Below are positions 634-27,515 of a DNA stretch of 32,000 nucleotides, one piece after another. The translations under genes and the position numbers were made by a program. Origin of the DNA: Planctomycetales bacterium (GTDB taxonomy: Bacteria; 4484-113; JAFGCY01); the NCBI GenBank assembly GCA_022646745.1, contig CP060262.1, forward strand, positions 3,000,001 through 3,032,000, written 5' to 3'. Below the pieces are notes generated by a model. That model was not told where the DNA came from. It saw nothing but the letters and a program-made list of their open reading frames with translations, and made no database searches. Positions within the stretch are counted from its first letter, which is position 1. The number at the start of each line of letters is the position of its first letter.

Positions 634-2853
634 CTACTCCTCGAAGGCGTTCTTCTCGAGGTTCCTGCGCTTGCGCTCGATCATGTCGTCAGAGGATCCA
701 GCGCCTTCGTCACCGGCAGCTTCATCGCCATCCTCGGCGGGCGCCTGCTGCTGTTCCATCTGCGCCTGCTCCTCCTCGCTGGCGATGATCACCGGAAGCT
801 GGAAGCCGTTGTAGATCACCCATTCCATCTGGTACTTCTCATCGAACTTCTCGTCCGGCATGTCCTCACCGCTGAGGCTGGCAGCAACCGCATTCGGGTC
901 GTAGGGGCGCACCAGCGTCACGAGCAGCTCGTTGTTGGTCGGCCACTCCATGATCTGGTCGAGGATGTCGTCAAAGTCCTGCTTGGTGATGTCGATGATC
1001 GGGCCCATGCCGAACAGGCTGCGGCCCTTTCCGCCGAGCGGTGCCATGCTGACGAGGTCACCGCCGCCATGCACGATCAGGGTGGTGTTGCCACTCGGGA
1101 AGTCCTCCGGCACGGTCAGGCTGAACTCGCGCCACACCGGGTCGGTGCGGTAGGGCTGCAGCTTGACCTTCACGCGGATGGTCTCGCCCGGGGCGAACTT
1201 CGGCACCTGGTCCATCGGATGGCCGCTCTCGAACATGATGCCGCCGGGCATGCCTTCCTCACCCTGCGGGTTCTCCTCCTCGCCGGGCTGCTGGCTGGGC
1301 TCAAAGTTGCCATTGAGCGCCTCCAGCGTATCCTCGACGCTGCTGTCGGACGCCGCCGCGGCTTCCTCGCCGGCCTCAGCCTCCGCCTCGCCGTCCTCCG
1401 AGATGATTTCGGCGTTGTCAATCGAGGCGTTGATGCGGTTGCGGGTGATCTCCATCATCACGTTCAGGCGGGTGATGTCGATGTCGCGGTAGATGTTGTT
1501 CTGCAGCAGGTTGGCAAGCGGCATGATGTCGAAGGCGCCGTCGCCGATCACGTCCATGTCATTGCTGTAGTAGTTCACGCGGCGCAGCGGCTCACGCAGG
1601 CCGGTGCCCTCCACGTGGTAGCTGAGCTTCATCGTGCCCTTGGGCTGGCGGTCCAGCACCTCGGCGGCCGCCTGGTTGACGGACATCGCAAGCAGGATCG
1701 GCGTCCAGTCCGGGTGCTTCATCACCTCGAACTCGAAGCTCTGGTCCTTGCCGGTGTCGATGTCCTTGATCTTGACCTTGACCGGGATCATGTCCGGCAT
1801 CACCTTGAAGGTGCCGCCGCAGGCAGCACCGTGGTCCTTGGTCATCGTGCCAAGCGTCGGCTCGAGGCGCACACCGTCCTTGAAGGCGCGCTCGATGCTG
1901 CCGTAGGTCCAGGTGATGTAGGCCTTGCTGATCGGCATGTTGGTCGGGCCGGCCTGGAAGAAGGGGTGGCCGAACATCAGGAAGCGGCCCTTGTCGTCAC
2001 TGTAGGTCACTGTGCCGATCGCCTGCATCTCGATGTCGCCGGTGACCAGCGATGCGGCAACCGCGTCGCCACCGACCAGTGGCGGTCCCGGGCGGTCCTC
2101 ATCCAGCAGCAGGCCGTTGCCATCGCTGTCCTGGCGCAGGAACAGGCCATCGCCGGCGCCGCTGCCGCCGGGCTTCTCGATCAGCTCGAGGTTGCTGCCC
2201 AGCATGGTGCGCATCTGGTCCTCATAGAGGCTGAACACCTTGTGGTTGATGCCGCTGACATAGACCGGGGTGGTTGCCAGCACGGCCTCGTACTCGTGGC
2301 GTCCGTCGCGTCTGGCAGCTTCATTGAAGGCGATCGCGTCCTGCAGGCTGTCCACGTAGCTGATCACGTTGCCATCCTCGTCGATCGGGATGCCGCTGTT
2401 CTCGGTTTCGGGCAACACGGTGTTGTCCAGGTAGTCCGGCTCATCGATGTCCGGCAGCGCTGCCATCATGGAGCTGATCGGGGTCACGCCTCCGACATGG
2501 GTGTCGGTGAAGGGGATCGCCGCGCTGACAGCACCGAGCAGCTTGCCGTCGATGTAGACCGGGCTGCCGGAATAACCGCCGGCGATGCCGTTTGAGTGGT
2601 CAACCACCGGTCCGGTGAAGTGGGCGAGGATCAGTGGTCCGCCGTCGAATCCACCGTCGGGGATCAGCTCGATCACCTCAACGTCGAATTCCTCGATCGT
2701 GGTCCCGCGGATCACGGTCCGGGCGGTGCCCTTCAGTCCCGGCTTGAGGTCCTTCAGGTCAAACACGGGTACGTCGAGCGTATTGTCTCCTGCAATTGCA
2801 CGGCCCATCAGTGCGAACACGCTGAGGGCCACCAGTAGGAGTACTTTCTTCAC
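634..2853 (-). CDS. secreted serine peptidase with SpoIVB-like (S55-type) domain and acidic C-terminal tail
   Basis: GTG start with a GAGAGG Shine-Dalgarno sequence upstream. Signal peptide MKKVLLLVALSVFALMGRAIA. The block TIEEFDVEVIELIP...PLILAHFTGPVVDHSNGIAGGYSGSPVYIDGKLLGAVSAAIPF...GGVTPISSMM matches the conserved core of S55 peptidase domain proteins, including the G.SGSP serine motif. The C-terminus is Glu/Asp/Gln-rich. Confidence 0.8.
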   Translation of the reverse strand: MKKVLLLVALSVFALMGRAIAGDNTLDVPVFDLKDLKPGLKGTARTVIRGTTIEEFDVEVIELIPDGGFDGGPLILAHFTGPVVDHSNGIAGGYSGSPVYIDGKLLGAVSAAIPFTDTHVGGVTPISSMMAALPDIDEPDYLDNTVLPETENSGIPIDEDGNVISYVDSLQDAIAFNEAARRDGRHEYEAVLATTPVYVSGINHKVFSLYEDQMRTMLGSNLELIEKPGGSGAGDGLFLRQDSDGNGLLLDEDRPGPPLVGGDAVAASLVTGDIEMQAIGTVTYSDDKGRFLMFGHPFFQAGPTNMPISKAYITWTYGSIERAFKDGVRLEPTLGTMTKDHGAACGGTFKVMPDMIPVKVKIKDIDTGKDQSFEFEVMKHPDWTPILLAMSVNQAAAEVLDRQPKGTMKLSYHVEGTGLREPLRRVNYYSNDMDVIGDGAFDIMPLANLLQNNIYRDIDITRLNVMMEITRNRINASIDNAEIISEDGEAEAEAGEEAAAASDSSVEDTLEALNGNFEPSQQPGEEENPQGEEGMPGGIMFESGHPMDQVPKFAPGETIRVKVKLQPYRTDPVWREFSLTVPEDFPSGNTTLIVHGGGDLVSMAPLGGKGRSLFGMGPIIDITKQDFDDILDQIMEWPTNNELLVTLVRPYDPNAVAASLSGEDMPDEKFDEKYQMEWVIYNGFQLPVIIASEEEQAQMEQQQAPAEDGDEAAGDEGAGSSDDMIERKRRNLEKNAFEE

Positions 2854-4421: not shown

Positions 4422-5114
4422 ATGATCATGTCCCTGGACCCGACGCAAGGAAGCAGCGCTGCCGTTATACTTGCGCCTGAACCAGTGGAAACCGCGATGA
4501 ACGAATTCGCCACACAGTCTGCGCAGGCCGAGGCCCAGGAGGATCGCTACTCCGATGACGCGATCATCCGCCGCTGCCAGGCCGGCGACTGGTCGGATTA
4601 CGACCGGCTGGTGGAGCGCCACCGGCGCATCGTCTGGGCGGCGATTGATGTGGTGATCGACAACAAGAGCCTGATTCCCGACCTGGTGCAGGAGTCCTTC
4701 ATCCGGGCCTACCGCAAGATGGACACCTACCAGTTCAAGAGCAGCTTCTCCTCTTGGATCTTCCGCCTGGCGCGCAACCATGCGATCAGCTACCTGCGCA
4801 GCAAGGCCGCCAAGCTCAAGAGCACGAGCATCGATGATGACAGCGATGACAGCACGCCGATCAGCCAGCGCATCGCCGGCGGCTCTGAGCCAGCCGAGGA
4901 GTACGAGCGGATGGACATGCGCCGCAGCCTGGACCAGATCCTCTCCCAGCTGCCGGAGCACTACCGCGCCGTGCTCAACCTTTACTACATCCAGGAACAT
5001 TCATATGAGGAGATCGCCCAGATCCAGGACATCCCTCTGAACACAGTACGCACACACCTGAGACGAGCCCGCCAGAAGCTCATGGAGCTGACTGGCCAAG
5101 GAGGATGGCAATGA
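4422..5114 (+). CDS. ECF-family RNA polymerase sigma-70 factor
   Basis: Region 2 block LVQESFIRAYRKMDTYQFKSSFSSWIFRLARNHAISYLR and region 4 HTH LPEHYRAVLNLYYIQEHSYEEIAQIQDIPLNTVRTHLRRARQKL. The start is uncertain: in-frame ATGs at 4422, 4428 and 4497 are all possible. Confidence 0.9.
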   Translation: MIMSLDPTQGSSAAVILAPEPVETAMNEFATQSAQAEAQEDRYSDDAIIRRCQAGDWSDYDRLVERHRRIVWAAIDVVIDNKSLIPDLVQESFIRAYRKMDTYQFKSSFSSWIFRLARNHAISYLRSKAAKLKSTSIDDDSDDSTPISQRIAGGSEPAEEYERMDMRRSLDQILSQLPEHYRAVLNLYYIQEHSYEEIAQIQDIPLNTVRTHLRRARQKLMELTGQGGWQ

Positions 5115-5614
5115 CACCATTCACGGAAGACGATTTCATGGACAACAGCCCGCGCACGCGGGACAGCGAACTGCGCAACCGCCTCGAGGGCCTGCGAGAC
5201 GAGCGCGAGCACATCGCGCCCGGCAGCAGCCACCAGTTCGAGGAGGTGCTGGAGCGCTACCTCGCCGGTGAGCTGAGTTACGACGAGGCCGGCATGATCG
5301 TGATCGACCTCGACCTCGATGAGGGGCAGGAGCGTGTCTGGCAGTCGCTGCGCAACCTCGAGGAGAGCCTCATCGTGCGCGCCGATGTGGCGAGCCAGCT
5401 GGACTGGCTCAGCCAGCGCGTGCGAGATGCGGTGGAGAACAATGAGCAGGTGCGGATGTGGCTGCGGGACATCAGCCGCGGCGTGCTGACCTTCCAGGTC
5501 TGGCAGGGGCACGATGAGTACCAGTCCCTGATCAAGTCCACCCGGCTGGCCTACATCGGCAAGTACATGGGGGTCTGCGGCGGGCTGGCGATCCTGCGCA
5601 ACGAGATCAGCTGA
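5105..5614 (+). CDS. hypothetical protein, putative cognate anti-sigma factor
   Basis: Overlaps the sigma gene stop (ATGGCAATGA; ATG at 5105 or 5111, TGA at 5112-5114), so translational coupling is likely. Codon usage looks coding. No zinc-binding H...C..C motif and no full-length transmembrane helix were seen, so the assignment is positional only. Confidence 0.5.
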   Translation: MAMTPFTEDDFMDNSPRTRDSELRNRLEGLRDEREHIAPGSSHQFEEVLERYLAGELSYDEAGMIVIDLDLDEGQERVWQSLRNLEESLIVRADVASQLDWLSQRVRDAVENNEQVRMWLRDISRGVLTFQVWQGHDEYQSLIKSTRLAYIGKYMGVCGGLAILRNEIS

Positions 5615-5652: not shown

Positions 5653-6591
5653 ATGAGCCCCTCACTCACGACGACACTACCGCGCGGCACCATCCTGAAG
5701 GACCCGATCCTGCTGGCCAGCGGCTGCTGCGGCTACGGCGAGGAATACCTCCCGATCGTGCATCCCTCGACCTACGGCGGCGTGATCACGAAGGCCGTCA
5801 GCGTCACGCCCCGGCTTGGCAACGAGGCCCCGCGCCTGCGGGAGACGCCGGCCGGCCTGCTCAACTGCATTGGCCTGCAGAATCCTGGGGTGGATGTGCT
5901 GCTCGATGAGGTGCTGCCGCGCATCAACCAGCTGGACTACAGCTACATCGTCAACGTGGTCGGGCATACCGTGGAGGAGTTCGCGGAGCTCGTGAGCCGC
6001 GTGCAGCGGCATTGCGACGAGCAGGGGCAGGGCGGGATGATCGGCTTCGAGCTGGACCTGAGCTGCCCGAACGTTGACAGCGGCACCACCTTCGCCACCG
6101 ACCTCGACGTGCTGCGCGCCGTGACAGCCGCCTGCCGGGCCGAGACGGAGCAGCTGATCATCAGCAAGATGACGCCGAACGTGACGGACATGCTGCCCTA
6201 TGCCGAAGCCTCACGGGAGAGTGGAGCTGACAGCATCACGATCAGCAATACGCTCAACGGCATCAGCATCGACATCCGCACGCGGAAAAGCAACCTCGGC
6301 CGGCCGAGCGCAGGCTTGTCAGGGGCGGCGATCCTGCCGGCGGTGCTGTACCACATCTGGCGCGTGCACAAGGCGATGAAGGACTACCCGATCGTCGGCT
6401 GCGGCGGGATCTGGGATGCGGACAGCGCGATCCAGCACATCCTCGCCGGGGCGACCGCAATCCAGCTCGGTACCGGCCTGTTCATGAACCCGAAGCTGCC
6501 AATCGAGGTGCAGCAGGGACTGGAGCGCTACCTCACTGAACAGGACGAGCCGGACCTCGACTCCATCCGCGGTACCTACGAGTACTGCTGA
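5653..6591 (+). CDS. pyrD: dihydroorotate dehydrogenase, class 1 catalytic subunit
   Basis: Motifs ILLASGCCGYGEEY, TKAVSVTPRLGNEAPRLRETPAGLLNCIGLQNPGVD, LDLSCPNV (active-site Cys), KMTPNVTD, ISNT and GLSGAAI. Confidence 0.9.
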   Translation: MSPSLTTTLPRGTILKDPILLASGCCGYGEEYLPIVHPSTYGGVITKAVSVTPRLGNEAPRLRETPAGLLNCIGLQNPGVDVLLDEVLPRINQLDYSYIVNVVGHTVEEFAELVSRVQRHCDEQGQGGMIGFELDLSCPNVDSGTTFATDLDVLRAVTAACRAETEQLIISKMTPNVTDMLPYAEASRESGADSITISNTLNGISIDIRTRKSNLGRPSAGLSGAAILPAVLYHIWRVHKAMKDYPIVGCGGIWDADSAIQHILAGATAIQLGTGLFMNPKLPIEVQQGLERYLTEQDEPDLDSIRGTYEYC

Positions 6592-6620: not shown

Positions 6621-9600
6621 CTAGTTAGTGGCTGTGCCGATGTCGGTCAGAGTTGGCGCGGGCAGCCGTACCGTCACCCTGTAGGCGTCGCTCGGGATGC
6701 CGCGGCTGACGACGACGATGTCGCCATTGCCGGCACCGACCGGCACCGTGGCCTGAATCTCCGTGTCGCTCCAGCTGACGATGCCAGCAGGTACGCCGCC
6801 GACGAGTACGGTTGGGAACTCAACGGCGTCATCCGGGCCGAATACGGAACCGCTGACGGTGAACGGGTCGCCCTCGTACAGCACGACAGGTGTCACCGAA
6901 CTGATCTGCGGCGCCAGCCGGGCCACGATGTCATCTACGTAGTAGCCTGAGCGGTTCTGGTTGCCATCACTGTAGAAGAACCAGTTGAGCTTGATCTTCT
7001 CACCGAGCCAGCTGTCCAGCCGCACACCATCCGCGCGCCAGTCATCCTGGCCGTCACCGGTGAAGGCTGCCAGCTCACTCCAGGTATCGAGGTCAGTGGT
7101 GGCATAGACGATGCAGTAATCGTAGCCGGTCTCGATGTCGTAGTGGTGGACCATGCCGAGGCCGGGCTGCGAGACGTTGTCAACCAGGATCGTCGGGCTG
7201 ATCAGGCTGTCACTCTGGTTGTTGCCGTAGTTGTTCGTATTGCGGCCGAAGAACATCACCGTGTCACCGGAGAAGCCGAGCCCCCCGCGGGTATGCCAGT
7301 TGCCGGCACCGTTGTTGTTCGTGATCTGCCAGTAGGGCGCCACAGCCCCCTGCCAGTCCTCGCCCCAGGGCAGGGGCAGGCCGGGGTTGGAGGTCGTCCA
7401 GTTGATGTTGACAGTCGTTTCCATGCCGTCGACATCAGTCACCACTGCACTGAACGGGATGCCCTGGTCGAACACGATGTCACTATTCCATGTGGTGGTG
7501 TAGGGAGCGGCCTTGTCCAGCAGGATGCTGCTGCCATTGAGGATGAAGTTGACGCTGAACACGCCGTCATCATCCGTGGCGTCAACCGTAATCGTCTCAA
7601 CGCCGGTCAGTACGGAGCCGTCACCGGGGGTGATGCTTACAACCTGCGGCGGGCCACCCGGCTCCTTCAGTGCCACGTTGTCAACCCAGAAACCGCCGGT
7701 GCCGTTACCGATCCGGTTCAGCGATGAACTGTCCAGCCGGAAGCCGAGCCGGATGGTGTCCCCGACGTAGTCACTGAGGTCTTCATTGACAACATGCCAG
7801 CTGGTGTTGGTGCCTGTGTAGCTGGCGATCGTGTCCCAGTTGGCGCCGTCATCCGTTGACACCAGCAGCTTGCAGGTGTTCTCTCCGGTACTGACGCGGT
7901 AGCGCTGGAACCAGCGCACGATCGGTGCCACGCTGCCCGTCATGTCAATCGCCGGGCTGACCAGCAGGTCATGCTCATTGCGATCGTAACCGCTGCCCTC
8001 GGTGCCAACTCCGGCACTGGAGCTGCCGCTGGCGGCGGTGTTCTTCGATTCCCAGCGGTTGCTGCCGCCCATGTTGTAGGAGGCCCACCAGTCGATGCCG
8101 GTCTCGAAGTCGTCACCCCAGGGGAAGCTCTGCACGCTGTTGCTGAGGTTGACAGTCACGCTGTCTGTGTCGATCTCACCCGCGCTGTCAACAGCCACCA
8201 CCTTGAGGGCACGGCTGCCGTCGTAGACTCCCTGTGTGTGGAAGGTCTTCTGGTACGGGGCGGTGTCATCCGAGCCGAAGTAGGCGTCGTTCAGGTAGAA
8301 CTCGACGCGGTCGATCGTACGCCCGCCGTCCGGTGTGGCATCAGCCGTCACCGTGATCTCGCCGGTGATGTTGTCATTGTCGGCATGGCTGGTGATCGTC
8401 ACGCCGGGGGCGTTGACACTCTCCACGTAGATGTCGAGCGTCATCGTTGCGCCGGGGGCGGAGATGTCATCCAGCCGCACGAAGGTCTGGTTGCCGGGGT
8501 TCGGGTAATTGCTGCTGCGCGGGTTGGAGATGTTGCTGAACTGCCCGGTGTAGTTGCCGTCACTGTTGCCGTCGAACCACAGGTCGTTCGCATGCCCGCT
8601 GCTGCCATCGTCAATCGGGTCGCGCTGCTCGGCGGCATTCGTGTCATTCACACCGCGCGCGCTTTCCACGTCGACCCACTTGCGGTACTCATCGCGGTTG
8701 TTGCTCTGTGAGTCATCACAGTGCAGCACCAGCAGTCCCTCACCGGGCCGGGTGGCATCCGTCAGGATCTTCCGCATGTTGCAGACGAGGAAGTACTGGT
8801 CGCCCTGCTGCCCGTTGGTCCAGACCTTCAGCACTTCCGGGTTTGTCTGGTAGGCGTTTATCGGGTAGTCCTGCACATTGTCAGTGATCACCGTCGGCGT
8901 GACCCAGCCGAGCTGCACCTTGCACCAGGGGTCCGGGCTCGGTACCAGCTGGTTGTTGTCATAGTTGTCAGCCATCAGGCTCCAGCGCGCCACCCCGTTC
9001 GAGGAATAGTCCGTGTCATACAGGTCCGGCAGGCCGAGGATATGGCCGTATTCATGGCAGGTGATCGTCATCGACCAGCTGTCATTGTCGTGGTAGCCGG
9101 TCAGGAAGTAGCTGTCCACGATCACGCCATCCACATGCGCGTTGACACCACTCCAGCGGTGCGGGTGCAGGCCGCCGCCGAACCAGACCGGGCCGGCGTA
9201 GAACACGATCAGGGTGTCCACGTAGCCGTCCTTGTCCGTGTCGAACTGGCTGTAGTCGACGTCGTCGTCGCTGGCCATCACCATTTCATAGATCAGGTTG
9301 CGGGCATTGTTGGAGCTGGCGTTGTAGAAGTCCTTGGTGCCGGCAGCGCGGTACCAGCCGTCGCCACCCTCACCGCCGGTCGCCACAGCACCGTCAATCT
9401 CCAGCTTGCCGTAGGACACCTGCTGGTAGTAGTCATTGGCACTCGGGGGAGTGACGCCGGTGTTGAAGAACTTGTCGTCAAAGTAGTCCACGTCGTAGGT
9501 GTCGTAGTCGGCTGCCTGGTCACTGAAGTCGGCGCGTAGCACGCACCACTGGGCTGTGCCCTCGGAGGGGGCGATGCTCGTGGTCTTGGTGACGCGCGGC

Positions 9601-9923
9601 ACCTCATATCCGAGCTCGAGCAGGTCGAAGTGGTCGATCATGCCATCGAGGTTCAGGTCAAGGCTGCGGCCTTCCTCGCCCAGCGGGTCAGTGCCGCTGA
9701 CCTGGCGGCCGAGCTTCTGGCGGATATCGTTGCTTGTCGTGACACCGGGGCCGGGCAGGGGATCGGTCTCACCGAATTCCATCTCATTGAGCTGTGGCCA
9801 GATCTCCTGCCACTTCTCGAGGTTGCCGGGCTGGTCAAACCATTCCTTCGGTGGTTTGACGGTGGCAAATGCCTGGCTGGTGCAGGCGATCAAGATCAGG
9901 ATGGCGAGCAGGAACCTATTCAT
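6621..9923 (-). CDS. secreted multidomain M6-family (immune inhibitor A-like) zinc metalloprotease, copy A
   Basis: Start set at ATG 9923 (MNRFLLAILILIACTSQAFA signal peptide) rather than the ORF-track start at 10037. HEYGHILGLPDLYD zinc site at 9042-9056 and onward. Ca-loop DLNLDGMIDHFDLLELG at 9609-9659. Two Ig-like modules, two beta-sandwich modules with LVSPAID / LISPT motifs (MAM or choice-of-anchor-J-like), and a C-terminal IPT/TIG-like module. Confidence 0.85.
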   Translation of the reverse strand: MNRFLLAILILIACTSQAFATVKPPKEWFDQPGNLEKWQEIWPQLNEMEFGETDPLPGPGVTTSNDIRQKLGRQVSGTDPLGEEGRSLDLNLDGMIDHFDLLELGYEVPRVTKTTSIAPSEGTAQWCVLRADFSDQAADYDTYDVDYFDDKFFNTGVTPPSANDYYQQVSYGKLEIDGAVATGGEGGDGWYRAAGTKDFYNASSNNARNLIYEMVMASDDDVDYSQFDTDKDGYVDTLIVFYAGPVWFGGGLHPHRWSGVNAHVDGVIVDSYFLTGYHDNDSWSMTITCHEYGHILGLPDLYDTDYSSNGVARWSLMADNYDNNQLVPSPDPWCKVQLGWVTPTVITDNVQDYPINAYQTNPEVLKVWTNGQQGDQYFLVCNMRKILTDATRPGEGLLVLHCDDSQSNNRDEYRKWVDVESARGVNDTNAAEQRDPIDDGSSGHANDLWFDGNSDGNYTGQFSNISNPRSSNYPNPGNQTFVRLDDISAPGATMTLDIYVESVNAPGVTITSHADNDNITGEITVTADATPDGGRTIDRVEFYLNDAYFGSDDTAPYQKTFHTQGVYDGSRALKVVAVDSAGEIDTDSVTVNLSNSVQSFPWGDDFETGIDWWASYNMGGSNRWESKNTAASGSSSAGVGTEGSGYDRNEHDLLVSPAIDMTGSVAPIVRWFQRYRVSTGENTCKLLVSTDDGANWDTIASYTGTNTSWHVVNEDLSDYVGDTIRLGFRLDSSSLNRIGNGTGGFWVDNVALKEPGGPPQVVSITPGDGSVLTGVETITVDATDDDGVFSVNFILNGSSILLDKAAPYTTTWNSDIVFDQGIPFSAVVTDVDGMETTVNINWTTSNPGLPLPWGEDWQGAVAPYWQITNNNGAGNWHTRGGLGFSGDTVMFFGRNTNNYGNNQSDSLISPTILVDNVSQPGLGMVHHYDIETGYDYCIVYATTDLDTWSELAAFTGDGQDDWRADGVRLDSWLGEKIKLNWFFYSDGNQNRSGYYVDDIVARLAPQISSVTPVVLYEGDPFTVSGSVFGPDDAVEFPTVLVGGVPAGIVSWSDTEIQATVPVGAGNGDIVVVSRGIPSDAYRVTVRLPAPTLTDIGTATN

Positions 9924-10464
9924 TACCGGCCTCCCTGCCATCCACGAGGAAGTCGATTTCCTGCTTGTCGGAATCACGCAGCATGAAGCGGTCCGTCTGC
10001 GGCTCAAGGCGGAAGTCCTTGAGGTCAAATGCTCCAAGCGGGCGGACCTTCACCGCCATCAGCAGCGGGTCGCCGTTAACCCCGTCGCCATGCCAGCGGC
10101 GGGTATAGGCGAAGTCCAGCTTGCCGGGTTCGGCGATGTTGTCGATGAAGTAGCTGTTGTCCGGCTGGCCCAGCCCGCCACCGGCTTCCACCACGATCAC
10201 TTCGTACAGGGCGGAGTCATAGCGCAGGCTGCCGGCGATCTGGTACAGGTCACGCGCATGCTTGCCATGCAGCAGCACGCGGTAGCTGCCGTCGTCGTAG
10301 GATTCACTGCTCAGCTGCAGGTCAAGCGTCTGGCGCAGGGCATCGTCAGACCCCTGGACCTGCTGCGCCGGTGAGTGCTGGCCCTGCTGGCCACCACCAC
10401 CACCGCACGCGAAAAGGAATAACACTGCGGCAAACACCACAGCAACAGCCTTCAATGCACGCAT
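9916..10464 (-). CDS. small lipoprotein, cohesin-like pattern, copy A
   Basis: Start set at ATG 10464 (MRALKAVAVVFAAVLFLFAC, lipobox LFAC followed by GGGGG). The stop TAG at 9916-9918 overlaps the protease ATG at 9921-9923 within an 8-nt overlap. Paralogous to 13888-14433. Confidence 0.75.
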   Translation of the reverse strand: MRALKAVAVVFAAVLFLFACGGGGGQQGQHSPAQQVQGSDDALRQTLDLQLSSESYDDGSYRVLLHGKHARDLYQIAGSLRYDSALYEVIVVEAGGGLGQPDNSYFIDNIAEPGKLDFAYTRRWHGDGVNGDPLLMAVKVRPLGAFDLKDFRLEPQTDRFMLRDSDKQEIDFLVDGREAGNE

Positions 10465-10546
10465 TGCACCCACCTGTGAGAAAGATTCTCCTGGCCCGTA
10501 AGGGGCGGGACAGCGTCCCGGCAAATCCCCGAAACTGACCCGCAGC

Positions 10547-13500
10547 CTACTTCTGGTCTAGTCCTGTGAGGTTCGGCGGCGGTAGTTTAATTGTAATTGA
10601 ATACCCGTCGGATGCAATGCCTCTTCGCAGAATCACCACACTTCCACTGGGTGAGGCAGCGGGCACCGTGCACACGATTTCCGTGTCATTCCAGCTCGTG
10701 ATGCTGGCCTGGATGCCGGAAACGGTCACCTTGCCGAAGTCCTCCGGCGGATTGCTGCCGAAGCCGGAGCCGCTGATGGTGATGCTGTCGCCGTTCACCA
10801 CGCTGGCAGGCGTGACGTTCGTGATCTGCGGAGCCGAGATCAGCTCCATCTCATCCACGTACCAGCCCTTCTCATCCACGCCGCCATCGGCCTCGAAGAA
10901 CCAGGCAAGCTTGACCTTCTGCCCGAGGTAGCTGTCCAGCCGTGCCCCGGCTTCGCGCCAGGCATTCTGGTTCAGCCCGGTGAACACATGCAGCTGGTTC
11001 CAGGTGTTGAGGTCGGTGGTCACGTAGCAGCGGCCGTAGTCATAGTTCAGCTCGATGTCATAGTGGTGCAGGTAGCCCAGGCCGGGGTCCACAATGCCCT
11101 GGAAGTCGAAGGTCGGCGAGATGAACCAGTCGTACTGGTTGTCGCCGTGGTCACCCACGTCCTTGCCGTAGAACATGCCGGGGCCGCTGTTGTAGCCGCC
11201 GCTGGCCAGGCGGTGCCAGTAGCCCTCACCGTTGACGTCAATCACGCGCCAGGCCGGTTCCGGGTCGCTGGCAAAGCCCTCACTCCATGGAATCGGCAGG
11301 CCGGGGTTGCTGGTGGTCCAGTTGACCGTCTGGCTGGTGGCCTGCAGGTCGCCGTCATACACAACTGCCGTGAAGGTGGCAGCCCCGTCGAACAGCCAGT
11401 CACTGTTCCAGTCCGTCGTGAACGGTGCGCTGAAGTCCTGGAAGATCAGGTCGGTGCCGTTGATGTAGAAGTCCACCTGCAGCACGGCCTCGTCATCCGT
11501 CGCTTCCACGGTGATGGTTTCGAGGCCGGTCAGGATCGCTCCATCCGGCGGAGTGATGCTGATGATGTTCGGCGCCGCGCTCAGTTCCTTCAGCTCCAGC
11601 TCGTCCACCCACCAGCCGGCGGTGCCGCCCTGCTTGTTCAGGCCACTGCCGTCGAACTTCAGGACCAGCCGGATCTCCTCACCGACATAGGCCAGCAGGT
11701 CAACGGCACCGGGATGCCAGCTCAGGGAGCTGCCGGTGTAGCTCACCAGCGGGGTGAGGGTCACGCCCTCATCCTTCGTAACGAACACCTTGCAGGTGTT
11801 CTCGCCGGCGCTGACATTGTGGCGGTGCTGGTAGCGCGCCATCGGGTGCGTGGTGCCGGTCAGGTCGATCTTCGGGCTGACCAGCGCATCATGCTCGTTG
11901 TAGTCATAGCCGCTGCTTTCGCTGCCGATGCCGGCGCTCTTGCTGCCTGAGGATCCCGTGTTCTTGCTTTCCCAGTAGCGGTCGCCATTGGTGTTGTAGC
12001 TGGCCCAGGAGCCGATGCCGGATTCAAAGCCTTCCGACAACGGGAATGTCTCAGCGGTGTTGGAGACATCCAGTGACTTGCCATCCGTGTCTATCTCGCC
12101 TTGGTCATCGGTTGCCACTGCAGTCAGCAACCTTGCATTGCTGCCGGCGGCATTGCCGTCATATACGCCGCGCGTGTCAATTGCCATTTCATAGGGGTCA
12201 GTGCTGTCAGCGCCGTACCAGGCTCCGTTGAGGTAGAAGTCCACGTGGTCGATCGTGCGTCCAGCTGTTGCTGTGGCCGTTGCTGTGACGTTGATGGTGC
12301 CGCTCACGGCATCGCCGTCATTGTGGCTGGTGATGGCAACGGTTGGGGCAGTGGCGGTCTCCACCACGATGTCCAGCGTCATGGTGTCACCGGGCGCTGA
12401 GATGTTGCTCAGGCTGATGAAGGTGTTTGCACCCGGGTTCGGATAGTTCCGGCTGAACGGGTTGGAAGTGTCATCGAAGATGCCGGTGTAGTCCCCGTCT
12501 GTGTTGCCGTCAAAGAACAGGTCGTTGCCATGCCCGAGGTTACCATTGTCCAGCGGGTCCTTCGGGTTTGTGAGGTTCGGGTCCTCGTAGCCGCGCGCAC
12601 TCTCGACATCAACATGCTTGCGGTCCTCATTGGCATTGTCACCGTTGCCGCCGGCCCGTGTCTCATCGATGTGCAGCACCAGCAGGCCTTCGCCAGGCCG
12701 GTTGGCATCGGTGCCGAGCTTGCGGTAGTTCGCCATCAGGAAGTACTGGTCCTCGATCTGGCCATTGGTCCAGACCCGCAGCACTTCCGGGCTGTTCTGG
12801 TAATAGGGCAGGTTATATCCCACCTGGTTCTCGGTGATGTTCTTGGCCGTAACCCATCCGAGCTGGCACTTGCACCAGGGGTCTAGCGAAGGAGGCTTCT
12901 GGCCGTTGTCATAGTTGTAGGCCATCAGCGACCAGTAGCCCATTCCGGCGCTGCCGCCGTTCACGTCATAGAGGTCGGGCAGGCCGAGGATGTGGCCGTA
13001 CTCATGGGCCGCGATCACCATCGTGTGGCTGTCGTTGCCGGTGTTGTAGCCCGAGATGAAGTAGCTGTCGACGATCACGCCGTCCACATGGATATTCAGC
13101 CCGCTCGAGCGGTGCGGCCACAGGCCGCCCTGGAACACCGTGTTCGGGTAGTAGCAGAGCACGGTGTCAACGTAGCCGTCACCGTCCACGTCGAAGTCGC
13201 TGAAGTCCACGAAGGGGTCGGCGTTCAGCACCGCCTCCTTCACCAGCCAGCGGCCACCGTTGTCAATGTACCACTGCTTGGTGTGCTCGCCCTTGTACCA
13301 GCCGTCGCCGCCGGTGCCGGAGGTATCCACCGTGCCGTTGATCGCCAGCTTGCCGTAGCTGGTTTCCTGGTAGTAGTCGTTGATGCTCGGCTTGGGTGCC
13401 GTGCCCAGCGAGAAGAAGCGCTCGTTGAAGTAGTCGACGTCGTAGGTGCCGTAGTTGGCATTCTGGTCCTGGAAGTCCGCGCGCAGCACGTACCACTGGT

Positions 13501-13891
13501 TCGTGCCCTCCGGCGGGGCAATGCTCGCGCCCTTGTTGTCAGGGGCGACCTCATAGCCCAGTTCCAGCAGGTCGAAGTGGTCGATCACGCCGTCCAGGTT
13601 CAGGTCGAAGCGCTGGCTGGCGGCGCTGCCGCTTTCCAGTCCCTCTTCATCGGCAAAGCGATCACGTGTGTAGCCGAGGTACTTGCGGATGCCGTCGTAC
13701 TGCTCAAGTGCACTGCCCGACATCGGCGGCTGGGGGTTGAATTCCCAGTCGTTCAGGATCGGGTACATCTCCTCCCAGAGCTTGTCCTTCTCCGGGCCGT
13801 CGAACCACTCCTGCGGAGGACGCACGGTCGCATTGGCAACTGCCCACAGCAGGATCACGAACAGGCTGGTCAGGAAGGCGATGCGGATCAT
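10547..13891 (-). CDS. secreted multidomain M6-family (immune inhibitor A-like) zinc metalloprotease, copy B
   Basis: Signal peptide MIRIAFLTSLFVILLWAVANA. HEYGHILGLPDLYD at 12992-13006 and onward. Ca-loop DLNLDGVIDHFDLLELG at 13556-13606. Same domain order as copy A and colinear along the full length. Confidence 0.88.
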   Translation of the reverse strand: MIRIAFLTSLFVILLWAVANATVRPPQEWFDGPEKDKLWEEMYPILNDWEFNPQPPMSGSALEQYDGIRKYLGYTRDRFADEEGLESGSAASQRFDLNLDGVIDHFDLLELGYEVAPDNKGASIAPPEGTNQWYVLRADFQDQNANYGTYDVDYFNERFFSLGTAPKPSINDYYQETSYGKLAINGTVDTSGTGGDGWYKGEHTKQWYIDNGGRWLVKEAVLNADPFVDFSDFDVDGDGYVDTVLCYYPNTVFQGGLWPHRSSGLNIHVDGVIVDSYFISGYNTGNDSHTMVIAAHEYGHILGLPDLYDVNGGSAGMGYWSLMAYNYDNGQKPPSLDPWCKCQLGWVTAKNITENQVGYNLPYYQNSPEVLRVWTNGQIEDQYFLMANYRKLGTDANRPGEGLLVLHIDETRAGGNGDNANEDRKHVDVESARGYEDPNLTNPKDPLDNGNLGHGNDLFFDGNTDGDYTGIFDDTSNPFSRNYPNPGANTFISLSNISAPGDTMTLDIVVETATAPTVAITSHNDGDAVSGTINVTATATATAGRTIDHVDFYLNGAWYGADSTDPYEMAIDTRGVYDGNAAGSNARLLTAVATDDQGEIDTDGKSLDVSNTAETFPLSEGFESGIGSWASYNTNGDRYWESKNTGSSGSKSAGIGSESSGYDYNEHDALVSPKIDLTGTTHPMARYQHRHNVSAGENTCKVFVTKDEGVTLTPLVSYTGSSLSWHPGAVDLLAYVGEEIRLVLKFDGSGLNKQGGTAGWWVDELELKELSAAPNIISITPPDGAILTGLETITVEATDDEAVLQVDFYINGTDLIFQDFSAPFTTDWNSDWLFDGAATFTAVVYDGDLQATSQTVNWTTSNPGLPIPWSEGFASDPEPAWRVIDVNGEGYWHRLASGGYNSGPGMFYGKDVGDHGDNQYDWFISPTFDFQGIVDPGLGYLHHYDIELNYDYGRCYVTTDLNTWNQLHVFTGLNQNAWREAGARLDSYLGQKVKLAWFFEADGGVDEKGWYVDEMELISAPQITNVTPASVVNGDSITISGSGFGSNPPEDFGKVTVSGIQASITSWNDTEIVCTVPAASPSGSVVILRRGIASDGYSITIKLPPPNLTGLDQK

Positions 13892-14433
13892 GATCCGGCC
13901 CTCCTGAGGCTGGGCTCGAGTTCGTGCTTCTGTGAATCGCGCACGCGCAGGCTGTCCGGCTCCAGCGGCAGGCTGAAGTCGCCGACGGAGAAGTCACCGA
14001 GTGCACGCACCCGCAGTCGCAGCAGGTTCAGGTCACCGGAGTTGATGCGGCCAAACCAGCGGCTGGTGTAGCCAAAGTCCAGCTTGCCCTCGGCGGCGCT
14101 GGAGTTGACGAAGTATGCTTCCTCAGGGCCGCCCAGTCCGCCACCGGCCTCCACCGAGGTGATCTCATACATCGTGGGATCGAACAGCACGCTGCCAGCC
14201 AGCTGGTAGATGTCCGTGGCATCCTCGGCACTGAGCATCAGTGACCATTCGTCACCCTGGATCGGGGTCGCTTCCAGCAGCAGGCTGACATTGCGATCAT
14301 CCAGCGAATCGGGGGAGGGCGCATTGTTGCCAGGTGAGAGATCGGCGTTGCCGCTGCGATCAGCACCGCCTCCGCCGCAGCCGAGCAGTGTCAGCAGCGT
14401 CAGGCAGGTAAGCAAGGATTTCAGTTGCCGCAT
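13888..14433 (-). CDS. small lipoprotein, cohesin-like pattern, copy B
   Basis: MRQLKSLLTCLTLLTLLGC lipobox followed by GGGG. The stop TGA overlaps the protease ATG (ATGA at 13888-13891). Shares the core IYQLAGS..(Y/F)D...YE(V/I)..VEAGGGLG.P...YF......GKLDF.YT.RW with copy A. Confidence 0.8.
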   Translation of the reverse strand: MRQLKSLLTCLTLLTLLGCGGGGADRSGNADLSPGNNAPSPDSLDDRNVSLLLEATPIQGDEWSLMLSAEDATDIYQLAGSVLFDPTMYEITSVEAGGGLGGPEEAYFVNSSAAEGKLDFGYTSRWFGRINSGDLNLLRLRVRALGDFSVGDFSLPLEPDSLRVRDSQKHELEPSLRRAGS

Positions 14434-14461: not shown

Positions 14462-14491
14462 ATTATAGGGTTTTTCCGGGTTCGCTGCTAA
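14462..14491 (-). promoter_or_regulatory. candidate sigma70-type promoter for cassette B (TTAGCA-N18-TATAAT)
   Basis: On the minus strand, TATAAT lies at 14462-14467 and TTAGCA at 14486-14491, the latter overlapping the stop of the SRPBCC gene. The -10 lies about 30 nt upstream of the lipoprotein ATG. Confidence 0.35.
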
Positions 14492-14955
14492 CCCGCGCTG
14501 CCCGCCTGCGCTGCGGCAATCGCGTTCAGGCCCTGCAGCAGCTCATCGCAGTTCTGGTCCATCACCTGGTTTGCGATGTTATTGACCATCGGGCCTAGCA
14601 TCGGGATGCCGAGCTCGAAGTCCACATTGAGGTGCACCAGTGTGCCGCCGTCCTGCGCCTCGAACTTCCAGTCGCCGTTGTAGATCTTCATGTCGCCCTT
14701 CACTAGCTCGAAGCGGCAGCTCAGGTCAGCTTCGTTCCAGCTGTCGCGCTCGGTCCAGGTGACCTTCTTGCTCATCGGGCCGACCTTGAGCGTAGCCGTC
14801 CATTCCGTGATCAGGCGGCCATTGCCCTCGTCGGACACCACGCGTGCACTGTCCAGGTTGGGCAGCACCTCGGGGAACTTCTCGACCTGGCGGGCAGCGT
14901 TGAACACTGCCTGCGGCGGCAGCGGAATGTGCATCGTCTTGCGGATTTCAAACAT
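14488..14955 (-). CDS. SRPBCC (START/polyketide cyclase/RatA-COQ10-like) ligand-binding domain protein
   Basis: About 155 aa. N-terminal pattern I.lP.....VF.....VE.FPE.LP......V and later W.....F.L..G.m..Y.G.W.F, typical of the RatA/COQ10-like family. Confidence 0.7.
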   Translation of the reverse strand: MFEIRKTMHIPLPPQAVFNAARQVEKFPEVLPNLDSARVVSDEGNGRLITEWTATLKVGPMSKKVTWTERDSWNEADLSCRFELVKGDMKIYNGDWKFEAQDGGTLVHLNVDFELGIPMLGPMVNNIANQVMDQNCDELLQGLNAIAAAQAGSAG

Positions 14956-14961
14956 GGCGGG

Positions 14962-16233
14962 TCATCCCTGGCTCTGGCTGAACTGTTCGAGGATCATACG
15001 GGTGCTTTCACAGGCCTTGTGCAGCCTTGTGATCACGACATCTATCACTTCGGGGGGCATGTGCAGCGGCGGTTCGATGCGCAGCACCTCCGGGTTGTTG
15101 AGGGCGAAGGCGATGAACACCTTCTCCTCGATCACGCTGGCGATCATCAGCTCGCAGATGTCCTTGCTGACGCAGTCGATGCCGATCATCATGCCCTGGC
15201 CGCGCACTTCCGCCAGTACATCGGGGAAGTCCGCCTGCAGCTTCTTCAATGCTTCGAGAAAGTAAGCGCCGTTCTTCTCCGCCTGCTCGGCGTAGCCACC
15301 CTGCTCCAGCAGGTCGAGTGCGGCACAGGCCGCGGCGCAGGCCAGCTCATTGCCACCGAAGGTGCTGGTGTGCACGAGCGGGTTCTCCTGGAACAGCTCC
15401 CAGACGTACTCGGTGCCGATGGTGGCGCCGATCGGCATCACGCCGCCGCCGAGCGACTTGGCCAGCACCAGGATGTCCGGCACGACGCCTTCTCGCTCGC
15501 AGGCGAAGTTGCGCCCGGTGCGCCCCATGCCGGTCTGCACCTCATCAAGGATCAACAGCACTCCATGCTTCTTCGTGATCTCACGTACGCCCGTCAGGTA
15601 GCCCGCGGGAGGCACACGGATGCCGCCTTCACCCTGCACGGGCTCAAGCATCACTGCCGCCGTCGTCTCGGAGATCGCGGCATCAAGGGCCTCGAGGTCG
15701 CCGAAGGGCACCACGCCGAAGTTGGCAATCAGCGGGCGAAACGGTGACTGGAAGTGTTCGCGGTGGGTGCTGGACAGGCTGCCCAGTGTCTTGCCGTGGT
15801 AGGCATTCTTGGCACTGATTATGTCCGGCTTGCCGGTGCGCAGGCGCGCCAGCTTGATGGCGGCCTCGACGGCTTCCGTGCCGCTGTTGCTGATGAAGCT
15901 GTACTTCAGCTCCCCCGGCGTGATCTCCGCCAGGCGGTGAGCCAGGCGGGCCTGTACCGGGTTCAGCAGCAGCTTGCTGGACATCGGCATGCGGTCCAGC
16001 TGCTGCTTGACGGCGCTGACCACGGCCGGGTTGCGGTGGCCGAAGTTGTAGCTGCCGTAGGCGGCAACGCAGTCGATGAATTCGCGGCCGTCACCGGTGC
16101 GCACATGCCAGCCTTCGGCCTCCAGCTCGGCGCTGTCCAGGCCCATGAAGCCCAGCAGGCTGAGCAGGCCGGAGTTGACATGCTCCATGTACCACTGCTT
16201 GGTGGTGGCGTCGTCGGGTAGGGGGTGTGTCAT
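14962..16233 (-). CDS. class-III PLP-dependent aminotransferase (putrescine/acetylornithine aminotransferase-like)
   Basis: Motifs GSYNFGHRNPAV, SNSGTEAVEAAIKLAR, LILDEVQTGMGRTG, PDILVLAKSLGGG (PLP lysine) and TSTFGGNELACAAA. Confidence 0.9.
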   Translation of the reverse strand: MTHPLPDDATTKQWYMEHVNSGLLSLLGFMGLDSAELEAEGWHVRTGDGREFIDCVAAYGSYNFGHRNPAVVSAVKQQLDRMPMSSKLLLNPVQARLAHRLAEITPGELKYSFISNSGTEAVEAAIKLARLRTGKPDIISAKNAYHGKTLGSLSSTHREHFQSPFRPLIANFGVVPFGDLEALDAAISETTAAVMLEPVQGEGGIRVPPAGYLTGVREITKKHGVLLILDEVQTGMGRTGRNFACEREGVVPDILVLAKSLGGGVMPIGATIGTEYVWELFQENPLVHTSTFGGNELACAAACAALDLLEQGGYAEQAEKNGAYFLEALKKLQADFPDVLAEVRGQGMMIGIDCVSKDICELMIASVIEEKVFIAFALNNPEVLRIEPPLHMPPEVIDVVITRLHKACESTRMILEQFSQSQG

Positions 16234-20894: not shown

Positions 20895-21017
20895 ATTGTC
20901 CTCTCCCCGGTGGGGCGCATAACGATACAGGTCTGCCCCACGGTTTACTACACAAAAATTACCATAATTCTGAATTCTATCAAGTCATATCATTGTTAAA
21001 GTATAAACAAGGCAAAA

Positions 21018-21043
21018 GGCAGGAGGCAGAAGCAGAAGCAGGA
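21018..21043. repeat. short purine-rich hexamer repeat (GCAGRA x4) in an AT-rich spacer
   Basis: GGCAGGAG GCAGAA GCAGAA GCAGGA, within the 270-bp divergent spacer between 20894 and 21165. Confidence 0.5.
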
Positions 21044-21164
21044 TTGATTGGAAGTGCGTACCCAGATTGGGTCAATGTGGTGATGGACAGACAGCCAACT
21101 AACAAACAAACCTCTGTAGGCTGTGAGGTGTCTAGCTAGCAACCCGGGTTAGAAGTAAAGCATA

Positions 21165-22457: not shown

Positions 22458-22553
22458 GCTCCTGTAACTGACAAATTGCGCACCAGCAATGGCCTGTCCT
22501 AGATCTGTCCTACATTTGCCTGACTTACATCAGGCCTCCGTGACTGGCCGGAA

Positions 22554-27378: not shown

Positions 27379-27515
27379 CACCTTGGCGCGGGAAGGGGTT
27401 TCCCGGGCATGCCGGACCTGGCTGATTGCACACAGCGAGGGATGGCCAGAGGTCTTTACCGGTTGGATTCTGATTGGTTGAAGGAAGGGCTACCTTGAAG
27501 CAAAGGACTACTGCC

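What the first reader, a model, noticed from the sequence alone, without database searches (positions are those of the whole stretch)
6621..14433. Tandemly duplicated two-gene cassette: small lipoprotein translationally coupled to a ~1100-aa M6 metalloprotease
Two consecutive units of about 3.9 kb (9916-10464 + 6621-9923, and 13888-14433 + 10547-13891) share the same architecture. A ~180-aa lipoprotein gene has a stop codon that overlaps the start codon of a giant secreted InhA-like (HEYGHILGLPDLYD) protease: ATGAATAG in unit A and ATGA in unit B. The proteases are colinear through signal peptide, conserved N-terminal PP.EWFD.P...W.E..P.LN..EF block, Ca loop, M6 catalytic domain, Ig-like, beta-sandwich, Ig-like, beta-sandwich and IPT/TIG modules. 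The lipoproteins share a conserved core. I know of no described obligatory lipoprotein partner for M6 proteases. Conservation of the stop/start overlap across diverged duplicates argues for stoichiometric co-production, with the lipoprotein acting as anchor, inhibitor/immunity protein or chaperone.
Basis: partly seen in the sequence, partly recalled or inferred. Interest (0 to 1): 0.75.

Follow-up and report, generated by a model that had tools for sequence, protein, structure and literature searches.

The report
Cohesin-fold lipoprotein paired with M6 protease
Two tandem gene pairs each couple a small lipid-anchored protein, shown here to have the cohesin docking fold of cellulosomes, to a giant secreted M6 metalloprotease with a dockerin-like calcium loop at its N-terminus, so the lipoprotein is most likely a dedicated membrane tether for the protease.

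Summary
On the minus strand lie lipoB (13888-14433), protB (10547-13891), lipoA (9916-10464) and protA (6621-9923). The stop/start overlaps are ATGA and ATGAATAG. The proteases are 53% identical and the lipoproteins 39%.

The new result is the lipoprotein's identity. Its AF2 model (core pLDDT above 90) matches only cohesin modules among the top 50 PDB hits (best E 3e-8). Its profile also reaches proteins that Pfam calls Cohesin.

The protease carries a subfamily-specific N-terminal four-helix module. This module holds one dockerin-type calcium loop, DLNxDGxIDxFDxLELGY. Its only Pfam match is Dockerin_1, below threshold. hhalign gives 93% over 23 columns. It is not a canonical two-segment dockerin, and its fold search was inconclusive.

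Every pair whose junction could be read (about 18 distinct pairs in the fetched loci) keeps the lipoprotein directly upstream with a 1-, 4- or 8-nt overlap. This holds down to 26-33% lipoprotein identity and in unrelated flanking contexts. Named genomes are UBP7-type MAGs.

Best explanation: a minimal, operon-encoded cohesin/dockerin-like tether for a protease (confidence about 0.45). Inhibitor or chaperone roles are not excluded. Binding was not tested. I rate it a new variant of a known kind, of moderate interest.

The parts
13888..14433 (-). lipoB: 181-aa lipoprotein (unit B). It has a signal peptide with lipobox LLGC (Cys19), a disordered Gly/Pro-rich linker (residues ~20-47) and a cohesin-fold core (residues 48-180).
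   Evidence: ORF and sequence. Cys19 is invariant in 45 homologues. AF2 model: mean pLDDT 82, nine strands. Top 50 Foldseek PDB hits are all cohesins.
13894..14292 (-). Cohesin-fold core of lipoB (residues 48-180).
   Evidence: The family profile reaches Pfam Cohesin proteins. Conservation is highest on strands 3, 6 and 8.
13888..13891 (-). ATGA stop/start overlap between lipoB and protB (4 nt), with AGGAGG 8 nt upstream.
   Evidence: The same 4-nt overlap is seen in B-type and single-copy relatives.
10547..13891 (-). protB: 1114-aa secreted M6 metalloprotease. Domain order: signal peptide, N-terminal module, M6 catalytic domain, Big_7, choice-of-anchor-J/MAM, Big_7, MAM, TIG.
13517..13828 (-). 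N-terminal module of protB (residues 22-125). It is a four-helix domain specific to this protease subfamily.
   Evidence: Conserved in 39 protein clusters. AF2 pLDDT 85, helices at 12-30, 40-49, 55-62 and 84-91 of the module. The only Pfam family hit is Dockerin_1, below cut-off.
13553..13606 (-). Dockerin-type calcium loop plus helix, DLNLDGVIDHFDLLELGY (protB residues 96-113).
   Evidence: hhalign to seven true dockerins gives 92.9% probability over 23 columns. The best PDB sequence hit is dockerin 5lxv_B, E 0.004.
12671..13480 (-). M6 catalytic domain of protB (residues 138-407). HEYGH lies at residues 296-300 (nt 12992-13006).
   Evidence: TIGR03296 at 148.9 bits against a cut-off of 110.8. 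The motif is read.
10465..10546 (-). 82-nt spacer between the protB stop and the lipoA start. No terminator-like site was found in it.
9916..10464 (-). lipoA: 182-aa lipoprotein (unit A). Lipobox LFAC, Gly-rich linker, cohesin-fold core (about nt 9931-10329).
9916..9923 (-). ATGAATAG stop/start overlap between lipoA and protA (8 nt), with AGGGAGG upstream.
   Evidence: All A-type relatives keep ATGAATAG or ATGAATAA.
6621..9923 (-). protA: 1100-aa secreted M6 metalloprotease with the same architecture. N-terminal module at residues 21-118 (nt 9570-9863). M6 domain at residues 131-401 (nt 8721-9533). HEYGH at nt 9042-9056.
14462..14491 (-). Promoter-like site TTAGCA-18-TATAAT just upstream of lipoB. 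This is weak evidence only.
   Evidence: 1 site found against 2.2 expected by chance in the region.

Best explanation
Each unit encodes a two-part tethering system.

The upstream gene makes a lipoprotein. After lipidation at the invariant Cys, a flexible Gly/Pro-rich linker of about 30 residues holds out a single cohesin-fold domain. The downstream, translationally coupled gene makes a Sec-exported M6 (InhA-like) zinc protease. Its mature N-terminus is a small helical module containing one dockerin-type calcium loop followed by an invariant LELGY helix.

I propose that the cohesin domain binds this N-terminal module. The binding is probably Ca-dependent and on the conserved 8-3-6-5 sheet. It would hold the roughly 120-kDa protease on the membrane at about 1:1 stoichiometry instead of releasing it.

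Related M6 proteases carry built-in sorting or anchoring domains: T9SS tails, SLH, or canonical C-terminal dockerins. This subfamily has none of these and uses a separate anchor protein instead. The tandem duplication gave two such pairs, and the A-unit protease has diverged faster.

Shown: gene structure, coupling, cohesin fold, conserved adjacency, and the Ca-loop similarity. Inferred: physical binding, which surfaces bind, and the anchoring role.
For: (1) Cohesin fold. The AF2 model of lipoB has core pLDDT above 90 and nine strands. All top 50 Foldseek PDB hits are cohesins, with best E 3.4e-8 and TM up to 0.71. They include single-enzyme surface anchors OlpA/OlpC (3ul4, 4dh2) and non-cellulosomal cohesins (2jh2, 2xdh). 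The family profile hits multi-cohesin and dockerin proteins at E 1e-9 to 1e-4. The only Pfam hit is Cohesin.

(2) Lipid anchor plus linker. The Cys is invariant in 45 homologues. Residues 20-40 have pLDDT below 50.

(3) Protease N-terminal module. It is conserved in all 39 full-length clusters and found nowhere else among 221 session proteins, apart from true dockerin segments. Dockerin_1 is the top Pfam family in 25 of 31 members. hhalign gives 92.9%. The best PDB sequence hit is a dockerin.

(4) Strict co-occurrence. Every lipoprotein homologue is followed by this protease type and every N-terminal module is preceded by the lipoprotein, wherever the junction could be read. The junction overlaps by 1, 4 or 8 nt. 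This holds in 6 GTDB species genomes and in about 10 metagenome loci with unrelated flanks.

(5) Conservation on the binding face. Conservation in the cohesin is highest on strands 3, 6 and 8. These strands belong to the dockerin-binding 8-3-6-5 sheet of solved complexes (PMC5429695).

(6) Anchors in other M6 relatives. They carry Por_Secre_tail, FlgD_ig, SLH or true Dockerin_1 domains. These proteins have none.
Against: The N-terminal module has only one Ca loop. It stays below the Pfam Dockerin_1 cut-off (at most about 16 bits for the window proteins against 22.9). It gave no significant Foldseek match; dockerins appear only at E 3-6. EF-hand proteins score nearly as well as dockerins by sequence, so the loop may be a purely structural Ca site.

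The Ca-loop/helix segment is identical in units A and B, so it cannot by itself give pair specificity. Distance correlations between the lipoprotein and each protease region are all similar (r 0.79-0.91). They do not single out the N-terminal module.

The cell-envelope type of the host is unknown, as is the side of the membrane the lipoprotein faces. An M6 protease with a canonical dockerin has no adjacent cohesin gene, so operonic pairing is not general for M6 proteases.
Confidence: 0.45

Rival explanations
1. The lipoprotein is a dedicated inhibitor or latency factor. It would work like the periplasmic Inh/AprI inhibitors of serralysins or the staphostatins. It is made just before the protease, binds it 1:1 and keeps it inactive until export or release.
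For: Upstream position and tight translational coupling at about 1:1. Strict co-inheritance. Beta-sandwich folds are common among protease inhibitors (general knowledge).
Against: The fold matches cohesins, not any inhibitor family. No Pfam or NCBIfam inhibitor family hit the lipoproteins. The lipid anchor with a long flexible linker, and the extra subfamily-specific N-terminal module with a dockerin-type loop, are not needed for an inhibitor.
Confidence: 0.2
2. The lipoprotein is a membrane-bound folding or export helper for the giant protease. It would act as a steric chaperone or pilot, like the Lif foldase for lipases. The contact would be transient and would not retain the protease.
For: Operonic coupling with a very large multidomain secreted protein. 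The membrane anchor places it where the protease emerges from Sec (inference).
Against: Cohesin modules are known as stable docking modules, not chaperones (PMC5429695). The protease has no recognisable outer-membrane export tag that a pilot would serve.
Confidence: 0.15
3. The two proteins do not bind each other. The cohesin lipoprotein binds something else, such as substrate, prey or another dockerin protein. It is merely co-expressed with the protease as part of one surface function.
For: No interaction data exist. The single Ca loop could be a structural site. Cohesin-like domains also occur in proteins with no known dockerin partner (general knowledge).
Against: The adjacency is retained with an overlapping junction down to 26-33% lipoprotein identity, in unrelated neighbourhoods and through a duplication. 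This is hard to explain without a direct functional dependence.
Confidence: 0.12

Closest known systems
Single-cohesin cell-surface anchors of Clostridium thermocellum (OlpA, OlpC, SdbA) that tether individual dockerin-bearing proteins
   Same: One cohesin module on a cell-envelope anchor recruits a secreted enzyme. Their structures (3ul4, 4dh2, 2bm3) are among the Foldseek hits to the lipoprotein model. Non-cellulosomal dockerins that recruit single enzymes use a single binding mode (PMC5429695).
   Different: Those anchors use SLH domains in a Gram-positive wall, and their partners carry canonical two-segment C-terminal dockerins encoded elsewhere. Here the anchor is a lipid-modified Cys. 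The partner module is N-terminal with one Ca loop. The two genes are translationally coupled.
Non-cellulosomal cohesin-dockerin pairs (Clostridium perfringens toxin/glycosidase complexes; Archaeoglobus fulgidus cohesin 2xdh)
   Same: The cohesin fold is used outside cellulose degradation to join two proteins. 2jh2, 2o4e, 2vo8 and 2xdh are among the structural hits.
   Different: Those modules sit inside large multidomain proteins and pair with recognisable dockerins. None is a small stand-alone lipoprotein dedicated to one protease.
Immune inhibitor A (InhA) / PrtV family, MEROPS M6
   Same: The catalytic domain passes TIGR03296 and PF05547 and carries the HExxH zinc motif. It is a large secreted multidomain protein with Ig-like and MAM-like domains.
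   Different: Only about 34% of the protein (the catalytic domain) aligns with other M6 proteins. The N-terminal module and the partner lipoprotein are confined to this subfamily. No partner lipoprotein is described for InhA or PrtV, to my knowledge and in the searches made.
M6 proteases with a canonical C-terminal Dockerin_1 domain (P0146, P0161, P0172)
   Same: They are M6 proteases that evidently use dockerin-based attachment.
   Different: Their dockerin is C-terminal, two-segment and above the Pfam cut-off. No cohesin gene is adjacent in the one context examined (L017).
Operonic protease/partner pairs: serralysin-Inh (AprA-AprI), staphopain-staphostatin, lipase-Lif
   Same: A small dedicated partner is encoded next to a secreted hydrolase and made in step with it.
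   Different: The partners have different folds and are not cohesins. This is an analogy of gene organisation only, recalled from general knowledge and not tested here.

Membership tests
Peptidase family M6 (InhA-like) | Catalytic-domain model above the curated cut-off | tested here: met
   TIGR03296 scores 153.8 and 148.9 bits against a cut-off of 110.8. PF05547 scores 35.7 and 30.9 bits against 22.
Peptidase family M6 (InhA-like) | Intact HExxH zinc-binding motif | tested here: met
   HEYGHILGLPDLYD is present in both copies.
Cohesin (PF00963) | Pfam model at or above the gathering score | tested here: not met
   15.1 and 16.8 bits against 24.1. It is still the only family hit.
Cohesin (PF00963) | Nine-stranded beta jelly-roll superimposable on solved cohesins | tested here: met
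   The AF2 model has nine strands and core pLDDT above 90. All top 50 Foldseek PDB hits are cohesins, with E down to 3.4e-8, probability 1.00 and TM (target-normalised) up to 0.71.
Cohesin (PF00963) | Profile-level sequence link to accepted cohesins | tested here: met
   The family profile hits P0047, P0048, P0051, P0055, P0077, P0092, P0096 and others at E 1e-9 to 1e-4. Pfam scores these as Cohesin at E 1e-46 to 1e-8.
Cohesin (PF00963) | Binds a dockerin partner | not testable with these tools
   No complex prediction or experiment was possible.
Dockerin type I (PF00404) | Pfam model at or above the gathering score | tested here: not met
   About 13-16 bits for the two window proteins against a cut-off of 22.9. 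25 of 31 members hit at E below 1, best E 8.6e-4.
Dockerin type I (PF00404) | Two duplicated ~22-residue Ca-binding segments | tested here: not met
   Only one DxNxDGxxDxxD loop is present. The region that would hold the first segment is a conserved helix without Ca ligands. hhalign aligns only 23 columns, the second loop.
Dockerin type I (PF00404) | Ca loop with ligands at positions 1, 3, 5, 9 and 12, followed by a helix | tested here: met
   D96-L-N-L-D-G-V-I-D-H-F-D107 is followed by LLELGY. It is nearly invariant in 41 sequences, and a helix is predicted directly after the loop.
Dockerin type I (PF00404) | Fold similar to solved dockerins | tested here: inconclusive
   Foldseek gave no hit at E below 1. 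Dockerins appear at ranks 10, 20, 32, 39 and 48 with E 2.7-5.8.
Bacterial lipoprotein (signal peptidase II substrate) | Hydrophobic signal peptide ending in a lipobox with an invariant Cys | tested here: met
   LLGC and LFAC boxes are present, and the Cys is invariant in a 45-sequence alignment. This was read from the sequence. No dedicated predictor was available.
Serralysin-inhibitor-type operonic protease inhibitor | Inhibitor fold or family match | tested here: not met
   No inhibitor family appears in Pfam or NCBIfam for the lipoproteins. The structural hits are cohesins only.

The most novel reading that the evidence does not exclude
A natural, minimal two-gene cohesin/'half-dockerin' system. 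A lipid-anchored single cohesin captures a protease through an N-terminal module with a single Ca loop. This would be a previously unrecognised class of cohesin partner. The system would serve to display or retain a giant M6 protease on the envelope (or on vesicles) of UBP7-type bacteria. Its tandem duplication would have produced two parallel tether/protease pairs.
Probability: 0.4. Interest if true: 0.6.

Novelty: new variant of a known kind. Interest (0 to 1): 0.5.

Why it matters
The finding gives a function-bearing fold to a family of 'hypothetical' lipoproteins. It also explains why a subfamily of giant M6 proteases lacks the anchoring domains that its relatives carry.

If binding is confirmed, cohesin-based docking would extend to three new settings: lipid-anchored stand-alone cohesins, an operon-encoded 1:1 enzyme tether, and an N-terminal partner module with one Ca loop that current dockerin models do not detect. 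Such modules may be overlooked elsewhere.

Synthetic biologists have built lipoprotein-cohesin display systems on outer membranes and vesicles (papers listed). This would be a natural counterpart.

It would also say something about how uncultured UBP7 bacteria deploy extracellular proteolysis: bound to the cell rather than released.

Tried and rejected
- **Homologue search with the protease N-terminal 121 aa:** it returned nothing, probably a limit of the word index. The full-length search worked.
- **The search for related loci with broad lipoprotein alignments (A3, A4, A6):** I replaced it with a hand-made degenerate DNA pattern. As a result the more distant small cohesin-lipoproteins (P0049-P0066 groups) could not be placed in genomic context.
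- **Foldseek of the N-terminal module:** no significant match, so a dockerin fold is not established.
- **Mirror-tree test:** I correlated lipoprotein distances with distances of each protease region. All regions correlate alike (r 0.79-0.91), so the test is uninformative.
- **Search for a lipoprotein-protease fusion:** none found. P0098 has an N-terminal lipoprotein-type cohesin followed by a canonical dockerin, but it is not an M6 protease.
- **PDB sequence search with the whole protease:** only marginal Ig/TIG hits and no M6 structure.
- **Promoter/terminator scan:** one promoter-like site upstream of lipoB, not above chance.
- **tRNA and Rfam scans of the window:** empty.
- **Complex prediction:** could not be run.


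Full report
**1.

Four ORFs lie head to tail on the minus strand:
- lipoB, 13888-14433
- protB, 10547-13891
- lipoA, 9916-10464
- protA, 6621-9923, taking the ATG at 9923 that precedes a signal peptide (the mechanical ORF runs on to a TTG at 10037)

Unit A has ATGAATAG, an 8-nt overlap. Unit B has ATGA, a 4-nt overlap. Each has an AGGAGG-like run 7-13 nt before the protease start.

The proteases are colinear and 53% identical. The lipoproteins are 39% identical, E 4e-35.

Both proteases pass the curated threshold of the M6 domain model TIGR03296 (154 and 149 bits against 110.8). Both keep HEYGHILGLPDLYD. Both carry two Big_7 Ig domains, choice-of-anchor-J/InhA-like MAM sandwiches and a C-terminal TIG domain.

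Both small proteins have a hydrophobic leader ending in a lipobox (LLGC, LFAC), followed by a Gly-rich stretch. The Cys is invariant in an alignment of 45 homologues.

**2. What the lipoprotein is**

No curated family claims it. The only Pfam hit for either copy is Cohesin, below threshold (E 0.008 and 0.028). The only notable PDB sequence hit is a scaffoldin cohesin, 4ums, at E 0.18-0.45.

I built an alignment of 14 homologues and predicted the structure. The model has mean pLDDT 82. The core, residues 48-180, is mostly above 90 and has nine beta strands. Residues 20-40 are disordered.

Foldseek against the PDB returned cohesin modules for all of the top 50 matches, with probability 1.00 throughout. 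The best is the CaCohA2 cohesin, 6kgd_A, at E 3.4e-8. The hits cover:
- type I and type II cohesins
- the single-enzyme surface anchors OlpA and OlpC
- the Clostridium perfringens cohesins
- the Archaeoglobus non-cellulosomal cohesin

Independently, a profile of the family was searched against 1.84 billion representative proteins. It found about 60 small proteins of the same length range; all 38 of those whose sequences I fetched are lipoproteins of the same build. At E 1e-9 to 1e-4 it also found multidomain proteins matched at several stretches. Pfam calls nearly all of these Cohesin (E down to 8e-46), and many also carry Dockerin_1.

The lipoprotein is therefore a divergent, stand-alone cohesin domain on a lipid anchor with a flexible linker.

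**3. What the protease adds**

A full-length homologue search gave 39 clusters of colinear proteins, 1055-1141 aa apart from one 980-aa member, at 38-88% identity. After these the hits drop sharply to proteins that share only the catalytic domain (34% coverage, E 1e-46).

All 39 clusters share the N-terminal roughly 105 residues that follow the signal peptide. The pattern is [TV]V[RQ]PPxEW[FL]D...W..M.P.L..WEF, then a variable stretch, then D-L-N-x-D-G-x-[IV]-D-x-F-D-x-L-E-L-G-Y. The last part is nearly invariant.

This loop has Ca ligands at positions 1, 3, 5, 9 and 12 and is followed by a helix, as in a dockerin segment. The evidence for a dockerin link is as follows:
- The only Pfam family hitting the isolated N-terminal region is Dockerin_1 (E 0.023 and 0.14).
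- 25 of 31 members hit Dockerin_1, always below the cut-off.
- A profile search of PDB sequences ranks a Ruminococcus dockerin first (5lxv_B, E 0.004). EF-hand proteins follow closely.

The AF2 model of the module is confident (pLDDT 85) and has four helices. Foldseek found nothing significant for it. Dockerins appear only at E 3-6.

So the module contains one dockerin-type Ca loop with its helix. It is not a canonical two-segment dockerin, and its overall fold is unassigned.

**4. The pairing is conserved**

- Three lipoprotein homologues were looked up in their contigs. Each lies just upstream of a full-length protease, in one or two units.
- A degenerate DNA pattern for the lipoprotein core was scanned across one genome per GTDB species. 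It hit eight stretches in six MAGs. Their titles name 'UBP7' isolates or unclassified or 'Planctomycetales' bacteria. Each hit whose junction lies within the fetched tile is followed by the protease.
- Two members of the most distant protease group (38-42% identity) were looked up. Both have a 182-195-aa cohesin-type lipoprotein directly upstream. Their flanking genes are entirely different from those in the window.
- A metagenome scan seeded with the protease N-terminal module returned six loci. All six have the lipoprotein upstream.
- In every junction I could read, the genes overlap by 4 nt ([AG]TGA), by 8 nt (all A-type units, ATGAATAG or ATGAATAA), or in one case by 1 nt. A GGAGG-like run lies upstream.

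The N-terminal module was never seen without the lipoprotein, and the lipoprotein never without the protease.

**5. The duplication**

Both units are present in several species (L003, L010, L012/L013, L007/L014). More distant lineages have a single unit (L004, L008, L009, L015, L016). In the single-unit lineages closest to the window (L004, L008, L009), the protease catalytic domain is closer to protB (0.73-0.76 identity) than to protA (0.58-0.61). The lipoprotein is equidistant from lipoA and lipoB. The A-unit protease is therefore the faster-diverging copy.

**6. Mechanism**

The best-supported reading is a dedicated tether. The lipid-anchored cohesin binds the N-terminal module of the protease made from the same transcript and retains it on the membrane. 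The supporting inferences are:
- The fold is that of a docking module.
- The lipid anchor and long linker suit display.
- Conservation across the family is highest on strands 3, 6 and 8, and on strand 5 in the closer set. It is lowest on strands 1, 2 and 9. The 8-3-6-5 sheet is the dockerin-binding face in solved complexes (PMC5429695). This assumes that the strand order of the model equals that of canonical cohesins.
- M6 relatives carry their own anchoring or sorting domains: T9SS tails, FlgD_ig, SLH or true C-terminal dockerins. This subfamily carries none.

The weaknesses are:
- Binding is untested.
- The single Ca loop may be only structural.
- The loop/helix segment is identical in units A and B, so it cannot explain pair specificity.
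- Correlations between lipoprotein distances and each protease region do not single out the N-terminal module.
- The envelope type and the topology of the lipoprotein are unknown.

The rivals are a latency inhibitor, a folding or export helper, and co-expression without binding. They remain possible and are scored in the report sections.

**7. Comparison with known systems**

The closest functional analogues are the single-cohesin surface anchors of Clostridium thermocellum and the non-cellulosomal cohesin-dockerin pairs. The differences are the lipid anchor, the operonic 1:1 coupling, and the N-terminal partner module with one loop.

Membership splits as follows:
- M6: met.
- Cohesin: supported by fold and by profile links, though not by the Pfam threshold.
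- Dockerin: not established. Two defining features were tested and not met. One was met. One was inconclusive.

Full-text searches found engineered lipoprotein-cohesin display systems. They found no natural lipoprotein-cohesin/M6 pair.

**8. Verdict**

The added value is that the partner is a cohesin-fold lipoprotein and that the protease's conserved N-terminal block carries a dockerin-type loop. This turns an open 'anchor, inhibitor or chaperone' question into a specific, testable tether model.

I rate it a new variant of a known kind. Interest is about 0.5. Confidence in the tether mechanism is about 0.45.

Noticed in passing
window 4422-5614 (+): An ECF-type sigma factor gene (4422-5114) overlaps by about 10 nt a 169-aa ORF (5105-5614) that could be its anti-sigma factor. 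The pair sits next to a dihydroorotate dehydrogenase gene (5653-6591). It is convergent with the protease units. The same neighbours occur in L003 (DHO_dh, a 178-aa ORF, ECF sigma).
   Followed up: partly
window 21001-23000: GC content drops to 0.50-0.54, against about 0.62 elsewhere. The region holds a 430-aa ORF (21165-22457, +) with no Pfam match. It may be foreign DNA. No tRNA or Rfam element is nearby.
   Followed up: partly
window 22554-25424 (-) and 27474-31226 (+): Two more very large probable surface or secreted proteins lie here. One is a 956-aa protein with PQQ_2-like propeller and bacterial TSP3 Ca-binding repeat hits. The other is a 1250-aa FG-GAP/ASPIC-UnbV protein.
   Followed up: partly
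window 634-2853 (-): A 739-aa ORF with a partial SpoIVB-type peptidase S55 match (E 3e-8).
   Followed up: no
protein P0098 (from the representative search, not in the window): A 1065-aa protein from elsewhere combines, in one chain, a lipobox with a GGGG linker, a cohesin-like domain matching this lipoprotein family (E 8e-4), a canonical two-segment Dockerin_1 domain, and about eight repeats of roughly 100 aa. It shows that lipoprotein-type cohesins can co-occur with true dockerins.
   Followed up: partly
window 6621-9923 vs 10547-13891; loci L004, L008, L009: Divergence after the duplication was asymmetric. In the closest single-copy lineages the protease resembles protB much more than protA, while the lipoprotein is equidistant from lipoA and lipoB. 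All A-type units have the 8-nt overlap, and all B-type and single units have the 4-nt overlap.
   Followed up: partly
window 14488-16233 (-): An SRPBCC (polyketide cyclase-like) gene and a class-III aminotransferase gene lie directly upstream of unit B. They are syntenic in L003 and L004-L006 but absent from the distant loci L015 and L016. They are therefore neighbours rather than part of the conserved unit.
   Followed up: yes
proteins P0049-P0066 (from the representative search): Further groups of 165-200-aa lipoproteins with the same cohesin-like core exist but have different motifs, such as VPFAFT...LQLRD. Their genomic partners could not be retrieved. They may tether other cargo.
   Followed up: no
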